Virus record (IMG/VR): IMGVR_UViG_2671180395_000007
Direction: 5' to 3' (one strand)
Length of the DNA stretch: 20,481 nucleotides
Source: a virus
Lineage: Duplodnaviria; Heunggongvirae; Uroviricota; Caudoviricetes
This document shows, one piece after another, positions 12,001 to 18,000 of this stretch. The position numbers were made by a program. How positions within the stretch are numbered: the stretch's first letter is position 1; each line of letters starts with the position of its first letter.

Positions 12001-15000
12001 GAAATCGACAAACGAAATACTTAACCAGCCGTGGTTATAACCAACGACCAGTAGCGATTTGATTTTTGATTTCATGGTTCACCTGTCGAAAAACACGTAG
12101 CCAGTTTTCGATACGGTGATTGCGGATGATGGTCTGGCTTGTGGTTGAATGGTTTCTGGCTTCTCGTCGTTCCAGCGCTGACCGTTCAGGTAGCTCGATG
12201 GTAACAACCTGTCGAATCCGAACTGCTTACCATTCCTGCATGCGATGTCTTCTGCCAGCATCGTGGCAAACTCGCTTGCCGTACCCCCGGTAGTTTTACG
12301 CCATTCCCTGAACTGTGTTCTGAATGCCGAAGCTGCGTTTTTCTTCCCGGCTTTCCGCATGCCTGCACACCAGAATATTTCCTCGAATGCCTTGTCGGTT
12401 TCTTCGTGACGGTCAGATGATTTTTCGCACTTCGTTCGGACACGTTCGAACTTAATGTTTTTAGGTTCATTGACTGGTTCAAAAGAGTGATAGGTTCTGG
12501 GGTCAGCTCCTGCCCCACCCCCTAGGTCAGCTCCTGCCCCACCCCGGTCAGCTCCTGCCCCACCCCGGTCAGCTCCTGCCCCACCCCGGTCAGCTCCTGC
12601 CCCACCTAATTCTGGTTGGATTTGTTGTGCATTATCCAACGTCAGATAAAAAACGTTTGACTGGTTAAGCTCTCCTTTTCTTCTGAATTCCCTTTTCAAA
12701 AGCCCCATATCTTCCAGTGCCCTAATGTGACTTTTTACTGTCGATCTGCTCACCTCACACTGGTCAGCGACATGTTGATATGAAGGCCAGCATTCGCCAT
12801 TATCATTGGCGTTATCGGCAAGTTTAATCAGAACCAGTTTTCTCAGTGGGTTGCCAACCTTTATATTCATGGCCTTAGCCATAAGATTCATGCTCATTTT
12901 GACTTCTCCGAAGTTTTGTACCTGTTAAGTATTTCTCTCAGTGGCACAGCTATTGCTGGATTAACCCCCTGATAAAACTGGTCACGTAGCACATCTTTTC
13001 GGTGATTAACGCGTTTATTTTCCTGCGTTTTTCGCATATAATTACCTCGTTGGATGTTGTTAAAATTCCATTTGTATTTGATCAGAACGCTCGGTTGCCG
13101 CCGGGCGTTTTTTATTGGTGAGTCCATCAAGCGCATACTTAAAAGCCCTGCTAATCGGACTGATGTCTGATGCCATTCCGAAAGCACACAAGACCGAAGC
13201 AATAAATCTCCAGTCCGTTCTGCTTATCTTCGATTCATGACAGCCAATCATCTTTGCCAGACCGCGCTGGGTAAGCGTTGACAGGTTGATGAGTAAATCA
13301 GTTTCAGCGCGATCAATTTCTCGCTGTGATAGTTTGCTGTAACTTGTTTGTTCCATTTCTTAAGATTTCCAATAGTGAATAGCTAGTTGAAAGGTATGCG
13401 TGGAAACGCATATGGCCTTAGTTGGTCAGATATCTTGGGACTCGCTTTTCAGCGACGTAGGACGAATGTCCGTTGTTACAAAGAGCGGCTCCGCTTATTA
13501 AGCGGCTTTGTGCTCCGGCGGGAACACGTCATCAAGACTTACTTTTGCGCCTAACTTGTTTAGACACGCAACAAGAGCACGGCATGTTTTAAGGTCTGGG
13601 AAGCGACGACCAGATTCCCAATGTCCGATAGCTCCCTGTGTGCATCCAACTGCCTTAGCAAGTGTTGTTTGAGAGATATTCAGTGACTCTCGATATTTTC
13701 GTAGGTTGCTCATATGCCCTCCATAGTAACCACGAATAAAAAAATACAATATGTACTTCTCAAATACAAGTAAAAATACACATTGTGCATGGATGGTTCC
13801 AGTACAGAGCGTAATAATAAGGACATGAAAATGAAATGGTATGAACTGGCTAGATCCAGAATGAAAGAGCTCGGCATAACTCAAGAGAAGTTAGCCGAAG
13901 AGCTAGGTATGACGCAGGGTGGAATTGGACACTGGTTGCGCGGATCTCGTCATCCATCTCTTAGTGATATTGGTGTGGTGTTTAAATACCTTGGTATTGA
14001 TAACATATCATTCAACCACGACGGGACATTTTCACCTGTTGGCGAATACTCATCGGCCCCAGTTAAAAAACAATATGAGTACCCTGTTTTTTCTCATGTT
14101 CAGGCTGGGATGTTCTCTCCAGAACTCAGAACCTTTACCAAAGGTGATGCGGAGAGATTGGTAAGCACAACCAAAAAAGCCAGTGACTCTGCATTCTGGC
14201 TTGAGGTTGAAGGTAACTCAATGACCGCACCAACAGGTTCCAAACCTAGTTTTCCTGACGGGATGTTAATTCTGGTTGACCCTGAGCAAGCTGTTGAGCC
14301 CGGCGATTTCTGCATAGCCAGACTTGGTGGTGATGAATTTACCTTCAAGAAACTGATCAGGGATAGCGGTCAGGTGTTTCTACAACCACTAAACCCGCAA
14401 TATCCAATGATCCCATGCAATGAGAGTTGTTCCGTTGTGGGGAAAGTTATCGCCAGCCAATGGCCTGAAGAGACGTTTGGGTAAAGAGGATAGATGGAGT
14501 TTAATGGCCATGAGTATCAAGCGGTCAAAAAGAAGTTCATCTATTCATTGAAAGCATAAGGCCATCTGAGTATATCCGTAATGATCTGGATATTGTCTAT
14601 AACATCAATGACCGGACGATAGATATCGGTGAGCAGCGTCCTGTATGGCAGGGTGAGGCAGGTGAAAAAACGTCCTGCCATCAACAAGAATCAAGTGCAT
14701 CCGCTCTCTGGACAGATGGAAAATTTATTGGATGCAAAAAGATATGAAATAACACCTGTATAGCACGGAGCTTTCTCTGACCGATGCACTTGAAGTTGTT
14801 AGGGCTGACCCAGCCTGCTGTTTCTTTAGGTAAGAGAAAAGAGATTTAGGAGATGAAAGGTCGCAGAGGTGCGGCCTTTTTTATTGAGAGTGGATCTTGA
14901 ACGGAAATTCTCAAGACTTGAGTCTTGCATGCAAATCAATTCCTGGATAAACTCGATCTGAGTCAATAACTTAGAGAGAGAGCAAATGGCAAAGTCAAAC

Positions 15001-18000
15001 GTTAGCGTGCAGGCATTCAAGGACTTCCTTGAAGAGCTTATGTCGCTGAACATAATGAAGGAGGCCACCGCTCGAAATTTAAAAAACTCATCCGCTCGCC
15101 TCTTAACGGTAGTCCAAGAAGAGGAAATGGGTGATGTTACTCAGCTTGATGTGAATGAGCTTGCCGAGCGATACATCAACGCAACTGAGCCGAAGCCTAG
15201 CGACAGCAGCATTACTGCATATAAAAGCCGCATGGAAAGTGCAATCAAAAAGTTTGTAGCTTTCCAGTCTGGTGAAGAAATCCCATACACTCCGATTGAC
15301 AAAGAATCCAGTGAGGAAAAAGATTTGACTGGCGAACCAACAAAAGTCGAAGGCAAGGCTAATGCACTTCATACCTATGATCTTCCAGTAGTTCTTCGAC
15401 CTGAATCAGGGGTTACAGTAACGATTAAAGGCATTCCTAACGATATCACAAACGAAGAAGCCGAACGCATCTCTTCAATTCTGAAGGTTTACGTTCGGCC
15501 TCAATAATGCAAAAGCATTCAGCACAATGTCCAACTCCCCAGTCCGACATTGATGCTGTTTAACCAGAGCCTCCAAAAGGAGCCCTTGTTAAGGTACACA
15601 ATATTTGCGATGTAACCTTAGCGCGTCTGGTACATTTTTTCAAGCGGTTGTAGGGCTGCCGCCAATATGAGAAAACACAGATGTCTACATACAATTTGAA
15701 TGACCAATTCGATCGAGAAGTTCATGTGAATGCCTATGAACGGATAAGGCATGGAAATCTTGAACATGTGTGTGAGCATTATCGCTCAAGGCCACACCGC
15801 TAATCATCAACCCGGCCTCCATGCCGGGTTTTCTTTTCCTCTCGCCCAAAAAAACACATAACCAATTGTATTTATTGGAAAATAAATAGATACAACTCAC
15901 TAAACAACGCAATTCTGATCTCTCCTTACATCGCCGAGGCAATACACCCACGCTAAAAAACAATACTATTAAATACAAAGCGTTGTAAAAAAACGCCCCG
16001 TTTTAGAACAAATTGTATTGACCAAGTGAAGTACATATCGTACTATTTAACCATCAGCAGGACGCTGGAAGCCAAATGGAACAGACTGGCAGGCTCTTTA
16101 AACAACGTCGACTCTCGACTACGTGGCTGAAAAGCCAGATCACCCAACCACATAAGCTGTGGGATGCAATGCCGAAGCAACCGTCTCAGGAGGAGCTTCG
16201 AGATTGCATCGCCAAAGTTTATTCGGGAGGAATCTATGTCCAGAAAAACAGAATTTAAAGGCACCGCAGCTTCTCGCCGTAGAGCTCGTCGCGCAAACCT
16301 GCAAAGTCAGGAGGCGATTAGCTCCGACAAACTACACAGGCCAACCCCATCACGAGTGGTCTTACAATGCAAACGCAAACCAGCAATGAGAGCAGAAGTA
16401 ATAACACTGACAACGTTGACCAGAAAATATGAAGGCTCAACTTGTCTTCCAAATGTAGCTCTTTACGCGGCAGGCTACCGTAAATCCAAACAACTGACAG
16501 CAAGATGACTTGTGTTGGTCGCCAGAAAATGAAATTAGGCAGCAAACCACTTATTTGAGGTGATATATGGAATTTCATGAAAGTGCGATTTGTGATTTTC
16601 GCGCTAACGCAAATTCAGTAAAACCACAGCCAATTGCAGTTCTTTTTAAAACAATGGGTGCGTGGGCTGTTTTATGCTTCGCCGCTGACGACACTGACGC
16701 AAGAATGGCAATAGGACAAGAGATGGAGATGGACCCGACAAACGATGAATTCATAATTTATGGCGCTCCATCTAATTACTTACTTGATACCTGCAACATT
16801 TACAACAAGGCTGCCTGATGGTGGCCTTTATTTTTGGCATAAACAACAGAATAAACACAGCACTGTGTATTCATTCCAACGAGTGAATACACGGAGCAAT
16901 GTCGCTCGTAACTAAACAGGAGCCGACTTGTTCTGATTATTGGAAATCTTCTTTGCCCTCCAATGTGAGGGCGATTTTTTATCTGTGAGGATATGAACAG
17001 ATGTCAAACATCAAAAAATACATCATTGATTACGACTGGAAAGCATCAATAGAAATTGAAATCGACCATGACGTAATGACAGAGGAAAAACTTCACCAGA
17101 TTAATAATTTCTGGTCAGACTCTGAATACCGACTCAATAAACACGGCTCTTTATTAAATGCTGTATTAATCATGCTGGCGCAACATGCTCTGCTTATAGC
17201 AATTTCAAGCGACTTAAATGCATATGGTGTTGTGTGTGAGTTCGACTGGAATGATGGAAATGGTCAGGAAGGATGGCCTCCAATGGATGGTAGCGAAGGA
17301 ATAAGAATTACCGATATCGATACATCAGGAATATTTGATTCAGATGATATGACTATCAAAGCCGCCTGAGCGCGGCGTTACCGCATACCAATAACGCTTC
17401 ACTCGAGGCGTTTTTCGTTATGTATAAATAAGGAGCACACCATGCAATATGCCATTGCAGGGTGGCCTGTTGCTGGCTGCCCTTCCGAATCTTTACTTGA
17501 ACGAATCACCCGTAAATTACGTGACGGATGGAAACGCCTTATCGACATACTTAATCAGCCAGGAGTCCCAAAAAATGGATCAAACACTTATGGCTATCCA
17601 GACTAAATTCACTATCGCCACTTTTATTGGCGATGAAAAGATGTTTCGTGAGGCCGTCGACGCTTATAAAAAATGGATATTAATACTGAAACTGAGATCA
17701 AGCAAAAGCATTCACTAACCCCCTTTCCTGTTTTCCTAATCAGCCCGGCATTTCGCGGGCGATATTTTCACAGCTATTTCAGGAGTTCAGCCATGAACGC
17801 TTATTACATTCAGGATCGTCTTGAGGCTCAGAGCTGGACGCGTCACTACCAGCAGATCGCCCGTGAAGAGAAAGAGGCAGAACTGGCAGACGACATGGGA
17901 AAAGGTCTGCCCCAGCACCTGTTTGAATCACTCTGCATCGATCATTTGCAACGCCACGGGGCCAGCAAAAAAGCCATTACCCGTGCGTTTGATGACGATG

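What the first reader, a model, noticed from the sequence alone, without database searches (positions are those of the whole stretch)
14485..16017. Self-contained AT-rich cassette at the rexAB position encoding an unrecognised 173-aa protein
Seen: between the cI stop (14484) and pL (about 16018) lies about 1.5 kb of AT-rich DNA holding a terminator (14858-14886), a promoter-like TTGCAT/TAAACT overlapped by two palindromes (14895-14953), one clean 173-aa acidic ORF (14986-15507) with no motif I recognise, a possible 40-aa His-rich ORF, and a terminator (15811-15838). Established: in lambda this slot holds rexA/rexB, and the cI-N interval of lambdoid phages is a recognised site for exclusion and host-interaction cargo. 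Inference: this is a moron whose product may be an exclusion, abortive-infection or anti-defense factor, possibly with regulated expression.
Basis: partly seen in the sequence, partly recalled or inferred. Interest (0 to 1): 0.72.

Follow-up and report, generated by a model that had tools for sequence, protein, structure and literature searches.

The report
Prophage cassette: protein, folded RNA, mini-protein
The stretch between the repressor gene and the early promoter of the Shiga-toxin phage Sp5 is a self-contained, portable three-part cassette (a 173-aa protein with an integrase-type DNA-binding fold, a conserved pseudoknotted RNA that is in no RNA database, and a conserved 40-aa protein), and published work could not delete its large gene from a lysogen, so it most likely acts as an addiction or defence module rather than as ordinary filler.

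Summary
The window is 100% identical to Stx2 phage VT2-Sakai/Sp5. The 173-aa ORF is ECs1184/H0093 and the 40-aa ORF is H0092; both are annotated "hypothetical".

- 14494-14827 is a frameshifted DUF3024 pseudogene.
- The portable unit is 14858-15838: terminator, conserved sigma-70-like promoter, ORF, spacer, small ORF, terminator.
- The 173-aa protein has a tyrosine-recombinase core-binding (SAM-like) fold with no catalytic domain, an acidic linker and a conserved beta-beta-alpha C-domain. Its family has at least 651 clusters at 50% identity.
- The 173-nt spacer (15508-15680) is a structured RNA with a pseudoknot. Covariation supports it, and Rfam has no match.
- A small Cys/His-rich ORF follows the large gene in 64 of 64 distinct related loci. 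It comes in three types with no detectable homology to each other.

In lambdoid prophages the module sits between cI and N; in other phages it sits elsewhere, so it behaves as a moron. Mondal et al. 2016 could not delete ECs1184 from a K-12(Sp5) lysogen.

Best reading (confidence about 0.4): an addiction or abortive-infection module in which ECs1184 is the protective or regulatory partner and the RNA gates the small protein. The function itself is untested.

The parts
14494..14827 (+). Pseudogene of a DUF3024 protein. It is not part of the portable module; it is an older cargo gene left between cI and the module.
   Evidence: tblastn with the intact 113-aa DUF3024 protein of phage SH2026Stx1 matches in three frames: aa 1-28 at 14494-14568, aa 12-58 at 14526-14666 (81% identity), and aa 60-112 at 14669-14827 (85% identity) with an in-frame stop. 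The gene is intact between cI and the module in Proteus/Providencia prophages, where it hits PF11225. PGAP calls only a 66-aa remnant.
14855..14886 (+). Intrinsic terminator T1. It ends the cI (pRM) transcript and insulates the module.
   Evidence: RNA fold -15.9 kcal/mol, z -4.04. The hairpin GGTCGCAGARRTGCGGCC is invariant in 7 lineages and present in 27 of 28 cI-flanked loci. It occurs once in the window. It marks the left edge of the homology block with Salmonella.
14895..14934 (.). Inverted repeats upstream of and over the -35: TCTTGA-N10-TCAAGA (14895-14916), CTCAAGACTTGAG (14910-14922) and TTGCATGCAA (14925-14934). They are possible operators, but this is unproven.
   Evidence: Read from the sequence. 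Their frequency is not above chance. Only the TCTTGA/TCAAGA arms are conserved in Salmonella.
14925..14953 (+). Sigma-70-like promoter of the module: -35 TTGCAT, 17-nt spacer, -10 TAAACT. The inferred transcription start is near 14960.
   Evidence: The hexamer positions are conserved in Salmonella, Proteus (-10 TAGAAT) and Serratia. It matches 8 of 12 consensus positions and was missed by the scanner. A natural 140-bp deletion in strain YB14-1 removes T1 and this promoter but keeps the ORF.
14986..15507 (+). The 173-aa protein ECs1184 / H0093 / Sp5 ORF23. It has an N-terminal core-binding (SAM-like) four-helix domain (about residues 8-95), an acidic disordered linker (about 96-128) and a beta-beta-alpha C-domain (about 130-165) with the motif PxPLR...LPxDLTxxEAERI.
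15508..15680 (+). Structured RNA between the two ORFs. P1 15520-15531/15546-15558; Pa 15563-15568/15626-15631; Px 15571-15574/15579-15582; Pc 15590-15598/15611-15620; Pd 15644-15647/15659-15662; pseudoknot 15583-15586 with 15652-15655 (the Pd loop). In the minimum-free-energy fold a U-run (15635-15642) pairs with the purine-rich stretch 15668-15675 just 5' of the small ORF.
   Evidence: MFE -52.2 kcal/mol, z -3.46, 0 of 200 shuffles as stable; the fold recovers P1, Pa, Px, Pc and Pd. In the class-2 alignment 92.6% of cells pair against 31-46% when partners are slid, 10 pairs change on both sides, and 0 of 500 shuffles reach the score. The analogous class-1 RNA in 21 sequences: 81.5% against 38-44%, 25 of 38 pairs changed on both sides. 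No Rfam family matches.
15681..15803 (+). The 40-aa His/Cys-rich protein H0092 (the 'type A' small partner ORF).
   Evidence: 95% amino-acid identity in Salmonella with 7 synonymous and 2 non-synonymous substitutions. 57% identity in SH2026Stx1, where the large protein is only 40% identical. PHROG 21154 at 5e-8. A small ORF of type A, B or C follows the large gene in 64 of 64 distinct loci.
15809..15838 (+). Intrinsic terminator T2, the right edge of the module. It lies in the segment homologous to the lambda sequence just downstream of rexB.
   Evidence: Scanner hit and fold at -14.3 kcal/mol, z -4.84. AP000422 annotates it as a terminator. 15805-16017 is 80-90% identical to lambda, HK97 and many E. 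coli prophages that carry other cargo.

Best explanation
SHOWN. The interval holds two things. The first is a dead DUF3024 gene (14494-14827). The second is an autonomous, horizontally mobile three-part cassette (14858-15838). In order, the cassette is: terminator T1; a sigma-70-like promoter; ECs1184 (a recombinase-type core-binding domain with no catalytic domain, an acidic linker and a conserved beta-beta-alpha domain); a pseudoknotted RNA of about 150 nt; a 40-aa His/Cys-rich ORF; and terminator T2. The order protein, then RNA, then small ORF is kept across a large family of phage and prophage loci.

INFERRED mechanism. The cassette is transcribed in the lysogen from its own promoter, insulated from pRM by T1. 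ECs1184 is the protective or regulatory partner. It acts through its nucleic-acid-binding N-domain on its own promoter repeats and/or on the leader RNA, and through the conserved C-domain on a protein partner. The folded RNA gates translation of the small protein, which is the effector. Loss of ECs1184 releases the effector and is lethal. That would explain why the gene could not be deleted, and it makes the cassette an addiction-type (toxin-antitoxin-like) module. In a lysogen such a module could also work as abortive-infection defence against superinfecting phage.
For: - Module limits and autonomy.
- Conserved position between cI and N in lambdoid prophages with unrelated immunity alleles, and non-lambdoid contexts elsewhere. 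Together these argue for a self-sufficient function that does not depend on this phage's operators.
- Core-binding fold.
- RNA structure with covariation, including the pseudoknot.
- The class-1 RNA model hits exactly once per locus, directly 3' of the large gene, in all 34 class-1 spacers.
- A small ORF is always present, 64 of 64 loci, and is under purifying selection.
- Literature: ECs1184 (ORF23) could not be deleted in frame from a K-12(Sp5) lysogen, and 'deletion appears to be lethal' (PMC5155283).
- ECs1184 was quantified in the RNA-associated proteome of strain Sakai, near significance at FDR 0.065 (PMC7618764). This implies expression in the lysogen and is compatible with a specific RNA partner.
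- A Salmonella-type locus (L052) has a truncated small ORF with the large gene intact. A natural promoter deletion keeps the large ORF fused to the cI transcript. Both fit 'the protective partner is retained, the effector is dispensable'.
Against: - No toxicity, no defence phenotype and no transcript mapping exist for this cassette.
- The small ORFs of types A, B and C show no detectable homology to each other or to any known toxin.
- ECs1184 gave only background signal in the PNK RNA-crosslink assay.
- The failure to delete is a negative result. It was reported without follow-up, also for ECs1180, and could be a cis or technical effect.
- There is no PADLOC hit.
- The palindromes at the promoter are poorly conserved.
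- Shine-Dalgarno sequestration is seen only in a single-sequence MFE fold.
- The covariance models of RNA classes 1 and 2 do not cross-detect each other. Calling them one RNA family therefore rests on architecture and position, not on a statistical match.
Confidence: 0.4

Rival explanations
1. Lysogeny-maintenance co-regulator, as Mondal et al. proposed. ECs1184 would be a DNA-binding protein, descended from a recombinase core-binding domain, that helps keep Sp5 lytic genes silent. Its loss would induce the prophage and kill the cell. On this reading the RNA and the small ORF are accessory.
Against: The same module is found with unrelated cI, cro and N alleles and in non-lambdoid phage contexts with no detectable cI or N. 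It is absent from most lambdoid and Stx phages, which carry other cargo in this slot. No copies of the promoter palindromes occur elsewhere in the 20-kb window.
Confidence: 0.15
2. An ordinary lysogen-expressed exclusion or defence (or anti-defence) moron with no addiction property. The reported failure to delete would be a technical or cis artefact, for example a disturbance of transcription near pL.
For: The cI-pL slot is where rexAB sits in lambda; the terminator and oL flank is shared with rexB-bearing prophages. The cassette has moron anatomy. Its neighbours in other phages include an FRG-domain gene and SieB.
Against: There is no match to any PADLOC model. Two independent ORFs around pL were both undeletable while 43 other mutants were made by the same method. 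Nothing in the sequence identifies a sensor or an enzymatic effector.
Confidence: 0.2
3. The RNA is the main actor. It would be a riboswitch-like or protein-binding leader, or a processed small RNA, that controls the small ORF in response to a cellular or infection signal. ECs1184 would be functionally separate.
For: The RNA has strong covariation and a pseudoknot, features typical of ligand-binding or protein-binding RNAs. It always lies directly 5' of a small ORF. RNA class and small-ORF type recombine independently.
Against: In all 64 loci examined the RNA was found only directly downstream of an ECs1184-family gene, with no solo copies in about 270 kb searched. No ligand or expression platform can be named. 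The Shine-Dalgarno sequence is not obviously occluded in class-1 RNAs.
Confidence: 0.15
4. A remnant or helper of a site-specific recombination element. A protein with only a core-binding domain would modulate a host or phage tyrosine recombinase and so promote movement of the cassette itself.
For: The core-binding fold. The cassette has sharp mosaic edges and many genomic contexts. A full integrase lies near one metagenomic copy (L020).
Against: There are no flanking direct or inverted repeats typical of a mobile element. The edges coincide with terminators shared by neighbouring phages, which fits ordinary homologous mosaicism. This reading does not explain the RNA, the small ORF or the lethality.
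Confidence: 0.05

Closest known systems
Lysogen-expressed cargo of the cI-pL slot in lambdoid phages: lambda rexA/rexB, and from my own knowledge 933W stk, HK022 nun and Salmonella BTP1 bstA
   Same: Same slot and same orientation as cI. It is bounded on the right by the terminator and oL segment that lies next to rexB in lambda. It is variable cargo between conserved regulatory genes.
   Different: There is no sequence or fold similarity to these genes and no PADLOC or Pfam match. The cassette has its own promoter behind a terminator instead of riding on pRM. It carries a structured RNA and a small ORF. It is reported as undeletable, which Rex is not.
Core-binding (SAM-like) domain of tyrosine recombinases (lambda Int 2oxo/1z1b, IntI4 2a3v, XerA 5hxy, 3nrw)
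   Different: There is no catalytic domain: the protein is 173 aa and has no Phage_integrase hit. The domain is fused to an acidic linker and a novel beta-beta-alpha domain. Sequence identity to the structural hits is only 7-13%.
Recombinase-derived prophage regulators MrpR (SPbeta, 8a0a) and SroF (phi3T, 9rd5)
   Different: Those proteins keep the full two-domain recombinase body of about 320 aa. They have no associated RNA or small ORF and come from hosts and phage types unrelated to this one.
Type II toxin-antitoxin / addiction modules
   Same: Two adjacent genes on the same strand, the first with a nucleic-acid-binding N-domain. There are inverted repeats at the promoter. Loss of the first gene is reported as lethal. 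The module is portable.
   Different: The gene gap is about 170 nt and is filled by a structured RNA. The putative toxin is only 40-57 aa, comes in three unrelated types and matches no toxin family. Toxicity has never been tested.
P1/P7 immI region (c4 RNA, icd, ant), compared from my own knowledge
   Same: An immunity-region module in which a structured RNA controls translation of a small, growth-inhibiting ORF.
   Different: c4 is a trans-acting antisense RNA. Here the RNA is a cis leader with a pseudoknot. Nothing in the spacer matched any Rfam family.

Membership tests
Tyrosine recombinase / phage integrase | A C-terminal catalytic domain carrying the R-H-R-Y active site | tested here: not met
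Tyrosine recombinase / phage integrase | An N-terminal core-binding (SAM-like) helical domain | tested here: met
Moron (autonomous accessory cassette in a phage genome) | Its own promoter and terminator(s), placed between conserved phage genes | tested here: met
   T1 and T2 fold as strong terminators. The promoter hexamers are conserved across genera. The cassette lies between cI and oL/pL. Promoter activity has not been measured.
Moron (autonomous accessory cassette in a phage genome) | Mosaic distribution: the same cassette in otherwise different phages and absent from close relatives | tested here: met
   The whole cassette is in 220 of 5426 complete E. coli genomes, while many more carry only the shared flanks.
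Moron (autonomous accessory cassette in a phage genome) | Expression from the repressed prophage | not testable with these tools
   The only evidence is indirect: the protein was quantified in the RNA-associated proteome (TRAPP) of strain Sakai (PMC7618764).
Type II toxin-antitoxin system | A recognisable toxin family and a growth-inhibiting toxin | tested here: not met
   The small ORFs hit no Pfam toxin family and only PHROGs of unknown function. There is no PADLOC hit. Toxicity cannot be tested here.
Type II toxin-antitoxin system | Loss of the antitoxin gene is lethal only when the toxin is present | not testable with these tools
   The literature reports only that ECs1184 could not be deleted. 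Dependence on H0092 is unknown.
Lambda RexAB and other known anti-phage defence systems | Sequence homology to RexA/RexB or to any PADLOC-DB model | tested here: not met
   Zero PADLOC families at E up to 10. No relevant Pfam or NCBIfam hit.
Any described RNA family (Rfam 15) | A covariance-model match | tested here: not met
   No hit at E up to 1 in window 13000-17000. No hit on the spacer in 9 related loci.
Structured cis-regulatory leader RNA | A conserved secondary structure supported by compensatory changes, located 5' of the regulated ORF | tested here: met
   The regulatory effect and any ligand or protein partner are untested.
DUF3024 (PF11225) gene at 14494-14827 | An intact reading frame encoding the ~113-aa domain | tested here: not met
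   Two frame changes and an in-frame stop relative to the intact homologues.

The most novel reading that the evidence does not exclude
The cassette is the founding example of an undescribed three-component prophage system. A recombinase-derived core-binding-domain protein would recognise a dedicated pseudoknotted RNA, and together they would control an interchangeable mini-protein effector (three unrelated Cys/His-rich types). This would give lysogens an RNA-gated addiction or abortive-infection switch. The RNA would be a new family, and the core-binding domain would have been reused for RNA or regulatory binding.
Probability: 0.25. Interest if true: 0.85.

Novelty: new variant of a known kind. 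Interest (0 to 1): 0.72.

Why it matters
Sp5 is the Stx2 prophage of the E. coli O157:H7 Sakai outbreak strain, and its stability in the lysogen governs toxin release. One of only two Sp5 genes that resisted deletion now has three things it lacked. It has a domain assignment. It has a conserved RNA partner that is in no RNA database. It has a conserved, mostly unannotated small-protein partner.

This turns an unexplained negative result into a concrete hypothesis that can be tested in three parts. The family is large, with at least 651 protein clusters in phages and prophages of Enterobacterales and in metagenomes. If the model holds, it adds a new type of addiction or defence cassette and a new structured RNA class. 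It would also show a recombinase core-binding domain working outside recombination.

If the module controls lysogen stability, it bears on Stx phage induction.

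Tried and rejected
- Pfam, NCBIfam and PADLOC on both ORFs gave nothing significant.
- A profile search of the whole protein and of the C-domain against PDB sequences gave nothing. Pfam on 30 C-domains gave only noise.
- Foldseek against BFVD gave nothing. The afdb50 library was unavailable.
- AlphaFold2 of H0092 was unusable (pLDDT 56, pTM 0.17), so no fold search was run on it.
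- A homologue search with H0092 returned only 3 proteins, because gene callers rarely call this ORF.
- hhalign among small-ORF types A, B and C found no homology.
- Cross-class RNA tests were negative. The class-1 model R1 scores the Sp5 spacer at only 9.1 bits (E 0.09), on its 3' part. The class-2 model R2 finds no class-1 or class-3 RNA. A single RNA family is therefore not proven.
- Palindromes as repeated operators: no further copies in the window.
- Read-through or frameshift fusion of the two ORFs was rejected, because the frame offsets between them vary among loci.
- Co-occurrence with ECs1180 was rejected: no homologue in the other loci.
- The genome-contig scan returned only one locus, and alignment A2 was too divergent to use for pattern scans.
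- Literature searches for DUF3024, ECs1183 and small RNAs of this interval found nothing relevant.

Full report
IDENTITY AND MAP

The finding interval is 100% identical to Stx2 phage VT2-Sakai (Sp5) and to Nil2, 1717, 2851 and the PA-series phages. The window runs opposite to the usual lambda map.
- cro lies on the minus strand at 13498-13713.
- cI is 13831-14484.
- The 173-aa ORF is H0093, which is ECs_1184.
- The 40-aa ORF is H0092.
- oL/pL is 15971-16046, nutL is 16092-16132 and N is 16236-16508.

PGAP and the original depositors call both ORFs 'hypothetical'. The whole interval occurs in 220 of 5426 complete E. coli genomes.

OBSERVATION CHECK

Both terminators fold well: T1 at -15.9 kcal/mol (z -4.0) and T2 at -14.3 kcal/mol (z -4.8). 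The promoter-like TTGCAT-17-TAAACT (14925-14953) is weak by consensus, at 8 of 12 matches, and the scanner did not list it. Its two hexamers are nevertheless conserved in register in Salmonella, Proteus (which has TAGAAT) and Serratia relatives, as is the 5' UTR with its Shine-Dalgarno sequence.

The two palindromes exist. They are not above chance and are not conserved; only the TCTTGA-N9/10-TCAAGA arms are kept. The protein is acidic, with pI 4.85. GC is 0.428 against 0.475 for the window, so 'AT-rich' is mild.

WHAT THE FIRST 370 BASES ARE

Positions 14494-14827 are a decayed DUF3024 gene. The intact 113-aa protein of phage SH2026Stx1 aligns at 81-85% identity, but across three reading frames and through an in-frame stop. 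The gene is intact in the same place in Proteus and Providencia prophages. This segment, up to T1, is shared at about 81% DNA identity with 933W-type Stx phages. It is older cargo and not part of the cassette.

CASSETTE LIMITS

Against Salmonella prophages the homology block is exactly 14858-15835, at 85.6% identity. On the right, 15805-16017 is shared with lambda, HK97 and hundreds of E. coli prophages that carry other cargo such as rexB, DUF1828 or NYN genes. The T1 hairpin GGTCGCAGARRTGCGGCC is invariant in seven lineages and is present in 27 of 28 cI-flanked loci.

THE 173-AA PROTEIN

Direct family searches gave only PHROG 2602, of unknown function, and a sub-threshold Phage_int_SAM_1 hit.

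Close homologues are confined to Enterobacterales. An exhaustive profile search found 651 clusters at 50% identity, of which 239 have E below 1e-10. Nearly all are 165-200 aa and match end to end.

The C-domain motif (F/L)PxPLR...LPxDLTxxEAERI is the most conserved part of the protein. It matches nothing in Pfam or the PDB.

SYNTENY

In Serratia, Proteus/Providencia/Morganella and Salmonella prophages the gene lies between a cI-type repressor (HTH plus S24 peptidase) and N, on the same strand as cI. The cI, cro, N and replication alleles in these prophages are unrelated to one another.

In 65 IMG/VR loci, a tblastn panel found cI and N flanking the gene in only 28 of 68 distinct loci. Other copies lie beside an FRG-domain gene, beside Big_2 and DUF6246 tail-region genes, or beside DUF1627 and a RecA-dependent nuclease. 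Metagenomic relatives at 23-29% identity stand alone between long non-coding flanks.

This is the distribution expected of a moron. It argues against a function tied to Sp5's own operators.

THE SMALL ORF IS A CONSERVED PARTNER

H0092 is 95% identical in Salmonella, although the large protein there is only 79% identical. Of 9 substitutions in H0092, 7 are synonymous. In SH2026Stx1 the large protein is 40% identical and the small one 57%.

A scan of every distinct locus with enough downstream DNA found a small same-strand ORF in 64 of 64, starting about 90-175 nt after the large gene. The ORFs fall into three types.
- Type A, 21 loci: ...VHVNAYERIRHGNLEHVCEHYRSRP (PHROG 21154).
- Type B, 32 loci: PAGFRWVKCRFRK...LDAHAYGYKCWSFPVR (PHROG 33859).
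- Type C, 11 loci: MATTICxKCGNSC..FRPYIxDKNGKKRFPKNSRVFPIPVCGC, with a treble-clef zinc-finger hit at 2e-4.

hhalign finds no homology between the types. All three are Cys/His-rich; types B and C are strongly basic (pI 9.0-9.9), whereas H0092, type A, is near neutral (pI 6.96). The type does not follow the similarity of the large protein: Proteus, at 73% identity to Sp5, has type B. The effector slot is therefore exchangeable.

THE SPACER IS A STRUCTURED RNA

The spacers show obvious compensatory changes. For 21 'class-1' spacers I used a plain MAFFT alignment that had not been fitted to any structure, and I proposed a fold by hand. The fold has hairpin P1, a closing helix Pa, inner helices Pb and Pc, hairpin Pd, and a pseudoknot between the Pd loop and the strand just after the 5' side of Pa. 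The counts support this fold.
- 81.5% of cells pair, against 38-44% when the 3' partners are slid.
- 25 of 38 pairs change on both sides.
- The covariation score is 0.354, against 0.07-0.15 for the slid controls.
- 0 of 500 shuffles reach the observed score.

Model R1, built from this alignment, finds the RNA once per locus, directly 3' of the large gene, in all 34 class-1 spacers (E from 1e-17 to 1e-48).

The Sp5 spacer belongs to a second class, together with Salmonella, L087, L047, L055 and L082. In window coordinates:
- P1: 15520-15531 with 15546-15558
- Pa: 15563-15568 with 15626-15631
- Px: 15571-15574 with 15579-15582
- Pc: 15590-15598 with 15611-15620
- Pd: 15644-15647 with 15659-15662
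- Pseudoknot: 15583-15586 with 15652-15655

In this class 92.6% of cells pair, against 31-46% when slid. Ten pairs change on both sides, including pairs in Pa, Pd and the pseudoknot, and 0 of 500 shuffles reach the score. The single-sequence MFE (-52.2 kcal/mol, z -3.46) recovers P1, Pa, Px, Pc and Pd on its own. It also pairs the U-run 15635-15642 with UGAGAAAA at 15668-15675, just 5' of the H0092 start codon.

A third class, in SH2026Stx1 and L059, shows the same order of helices by eye.

Rfam 15 has no match.

One caveat applies. R1 scores the Sp5 spacer at only 9.1 bits, and R2 finds no class-1 or class-3 RNA. That the classes form one family is therefore inferred from the shared position, the shared order of helices and the short shared motifs UAGCG and UCAAG. 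It is not demonstrated.

LITERATURE

Mondal et al. 2016 (PMC5155283) made 43 in-frame Sp5 deletion mutants in K-12. They could not delete ORF23 (ECs1184) or ORF21 (ECs1180). They judged the deletions lethal and suggested a role in maintaining lysogeny.

A 2025 NAR study (PMC7618764) found ECs1184 in the RNA-associated proteome of strain Sakai at FDR 0.065. Its PNK labelling signal was no stronger than the GFP control.

I found nothing on the RNA, on H0092 or on DUF3024.

MECHANISM

Shown: the anatomy, its conservation and its mobility.

Inferred: the module is expressed in the lysogen from its own promoter, ECs1184 is the protective or regulatory partner, the RNA gates the small effector, and loss of ECs1184 is lethal. 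That would make the cassette an addiction-type module able to act in abortive infection.

Three observations favour this over the co-repressor idea. The module works with any immunity type and outside lambdoid phages. It is self-contained. Natural variants keep the large gene while losing either its promoter (strain YB14-1) or the small ORF (L052).

The model remains unproven, and I put it at about 0.4. The rivals are a co-repressor (0.15), a plain defence moron with an artefactual deletion failure (0.2), an RNA-centred switch (0.15) and a recombination helper (0.05).

VERDICT

The sequence is known and has long been annotated as hypothetical. The new elements are the domain assignment, the pseudogene, the three-part architecture and the RNA, which is absent from Rfam. 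I found no published description of them.

Noticed in passing
window 16567-16818 (+): ECs1180 (83 aa, directly after N) is the only other Sp5 ORF reported as undeletable (PMC5155283). It has no Pfam hit and no homologue in the other module-bearing loci, so it does not co-occur with the cassette.
   Followed up: partly
window ~14838-14972; L093 (E. coli O157:H7 YB14-1): A natural deletion of about 140 bp, with 5-nt microhomology, removes terminator T1, the palindromes and the -35/-10 of the ECs1184 promoter. It leaves the Shine-Dalgarno sequence and the ORF intact, so the gene is fused to the cI transcript.
   Followed up: yes
window 15532-15545 (loop of RNA hairpin P1): The 14-nt loop is the exact reverse complement in Salmonella, L055, L082 and L087 compared with Sp5 and L047. 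This looks like an inversion across the stem arms, so loop orientation seems not to be constrained.
   Followed up: partly
window 14859-14876 and 27 related loci: The terminator hairpin GGTCGCAGARRTGCGGCC is more conserved than the coding sequences around it. It is invariant where the large protein is only 40% identical. It occurs only in cI-flanked loci, so it may be a recombination junction or may have a role beyond termination.
   Followed up: partly
L004/L060 (type B), L005/L047 (type C), window 15681-15803 (type A): RNA class and small-ORF type are combined freely: class 1 with B or C, class 2 with A or C, class 3 with A or C. This implies a recombination breakpoint between the RNA and the small ORF.
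   Followed up: partly
L052 ~3679-3771: A Salmonella-type copy has the small ORF truncated (…YERIRWEC*) while the large gene is intact.
   Followed up: no
L075 4515-6135; L013 2736-3773 and 5825-6403: Neighbours of the module in other prophages include an FRG-domain protein followed by an unassigned 203-aa ORF, a 345-aa ORF of unknown family inserted between cI and the module, and SieB. These look like accessory or defence islands.
   Followed up: partly
window 12079-12897 (-): The O replication gene encodes four tandem GGAGADR repeats. These correspond to the ori iterons annotated in AP000422, which is an ordinary lambdoid feature.
   Followed up: no
window 16076-16258 (+): RefSeq annotates a 60-aa ORF (ECs_5705) across nutL and the N leader, overlapping the N start. 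It is probably an annotation artefact over a regulatory RNA region.
   Followed up: no
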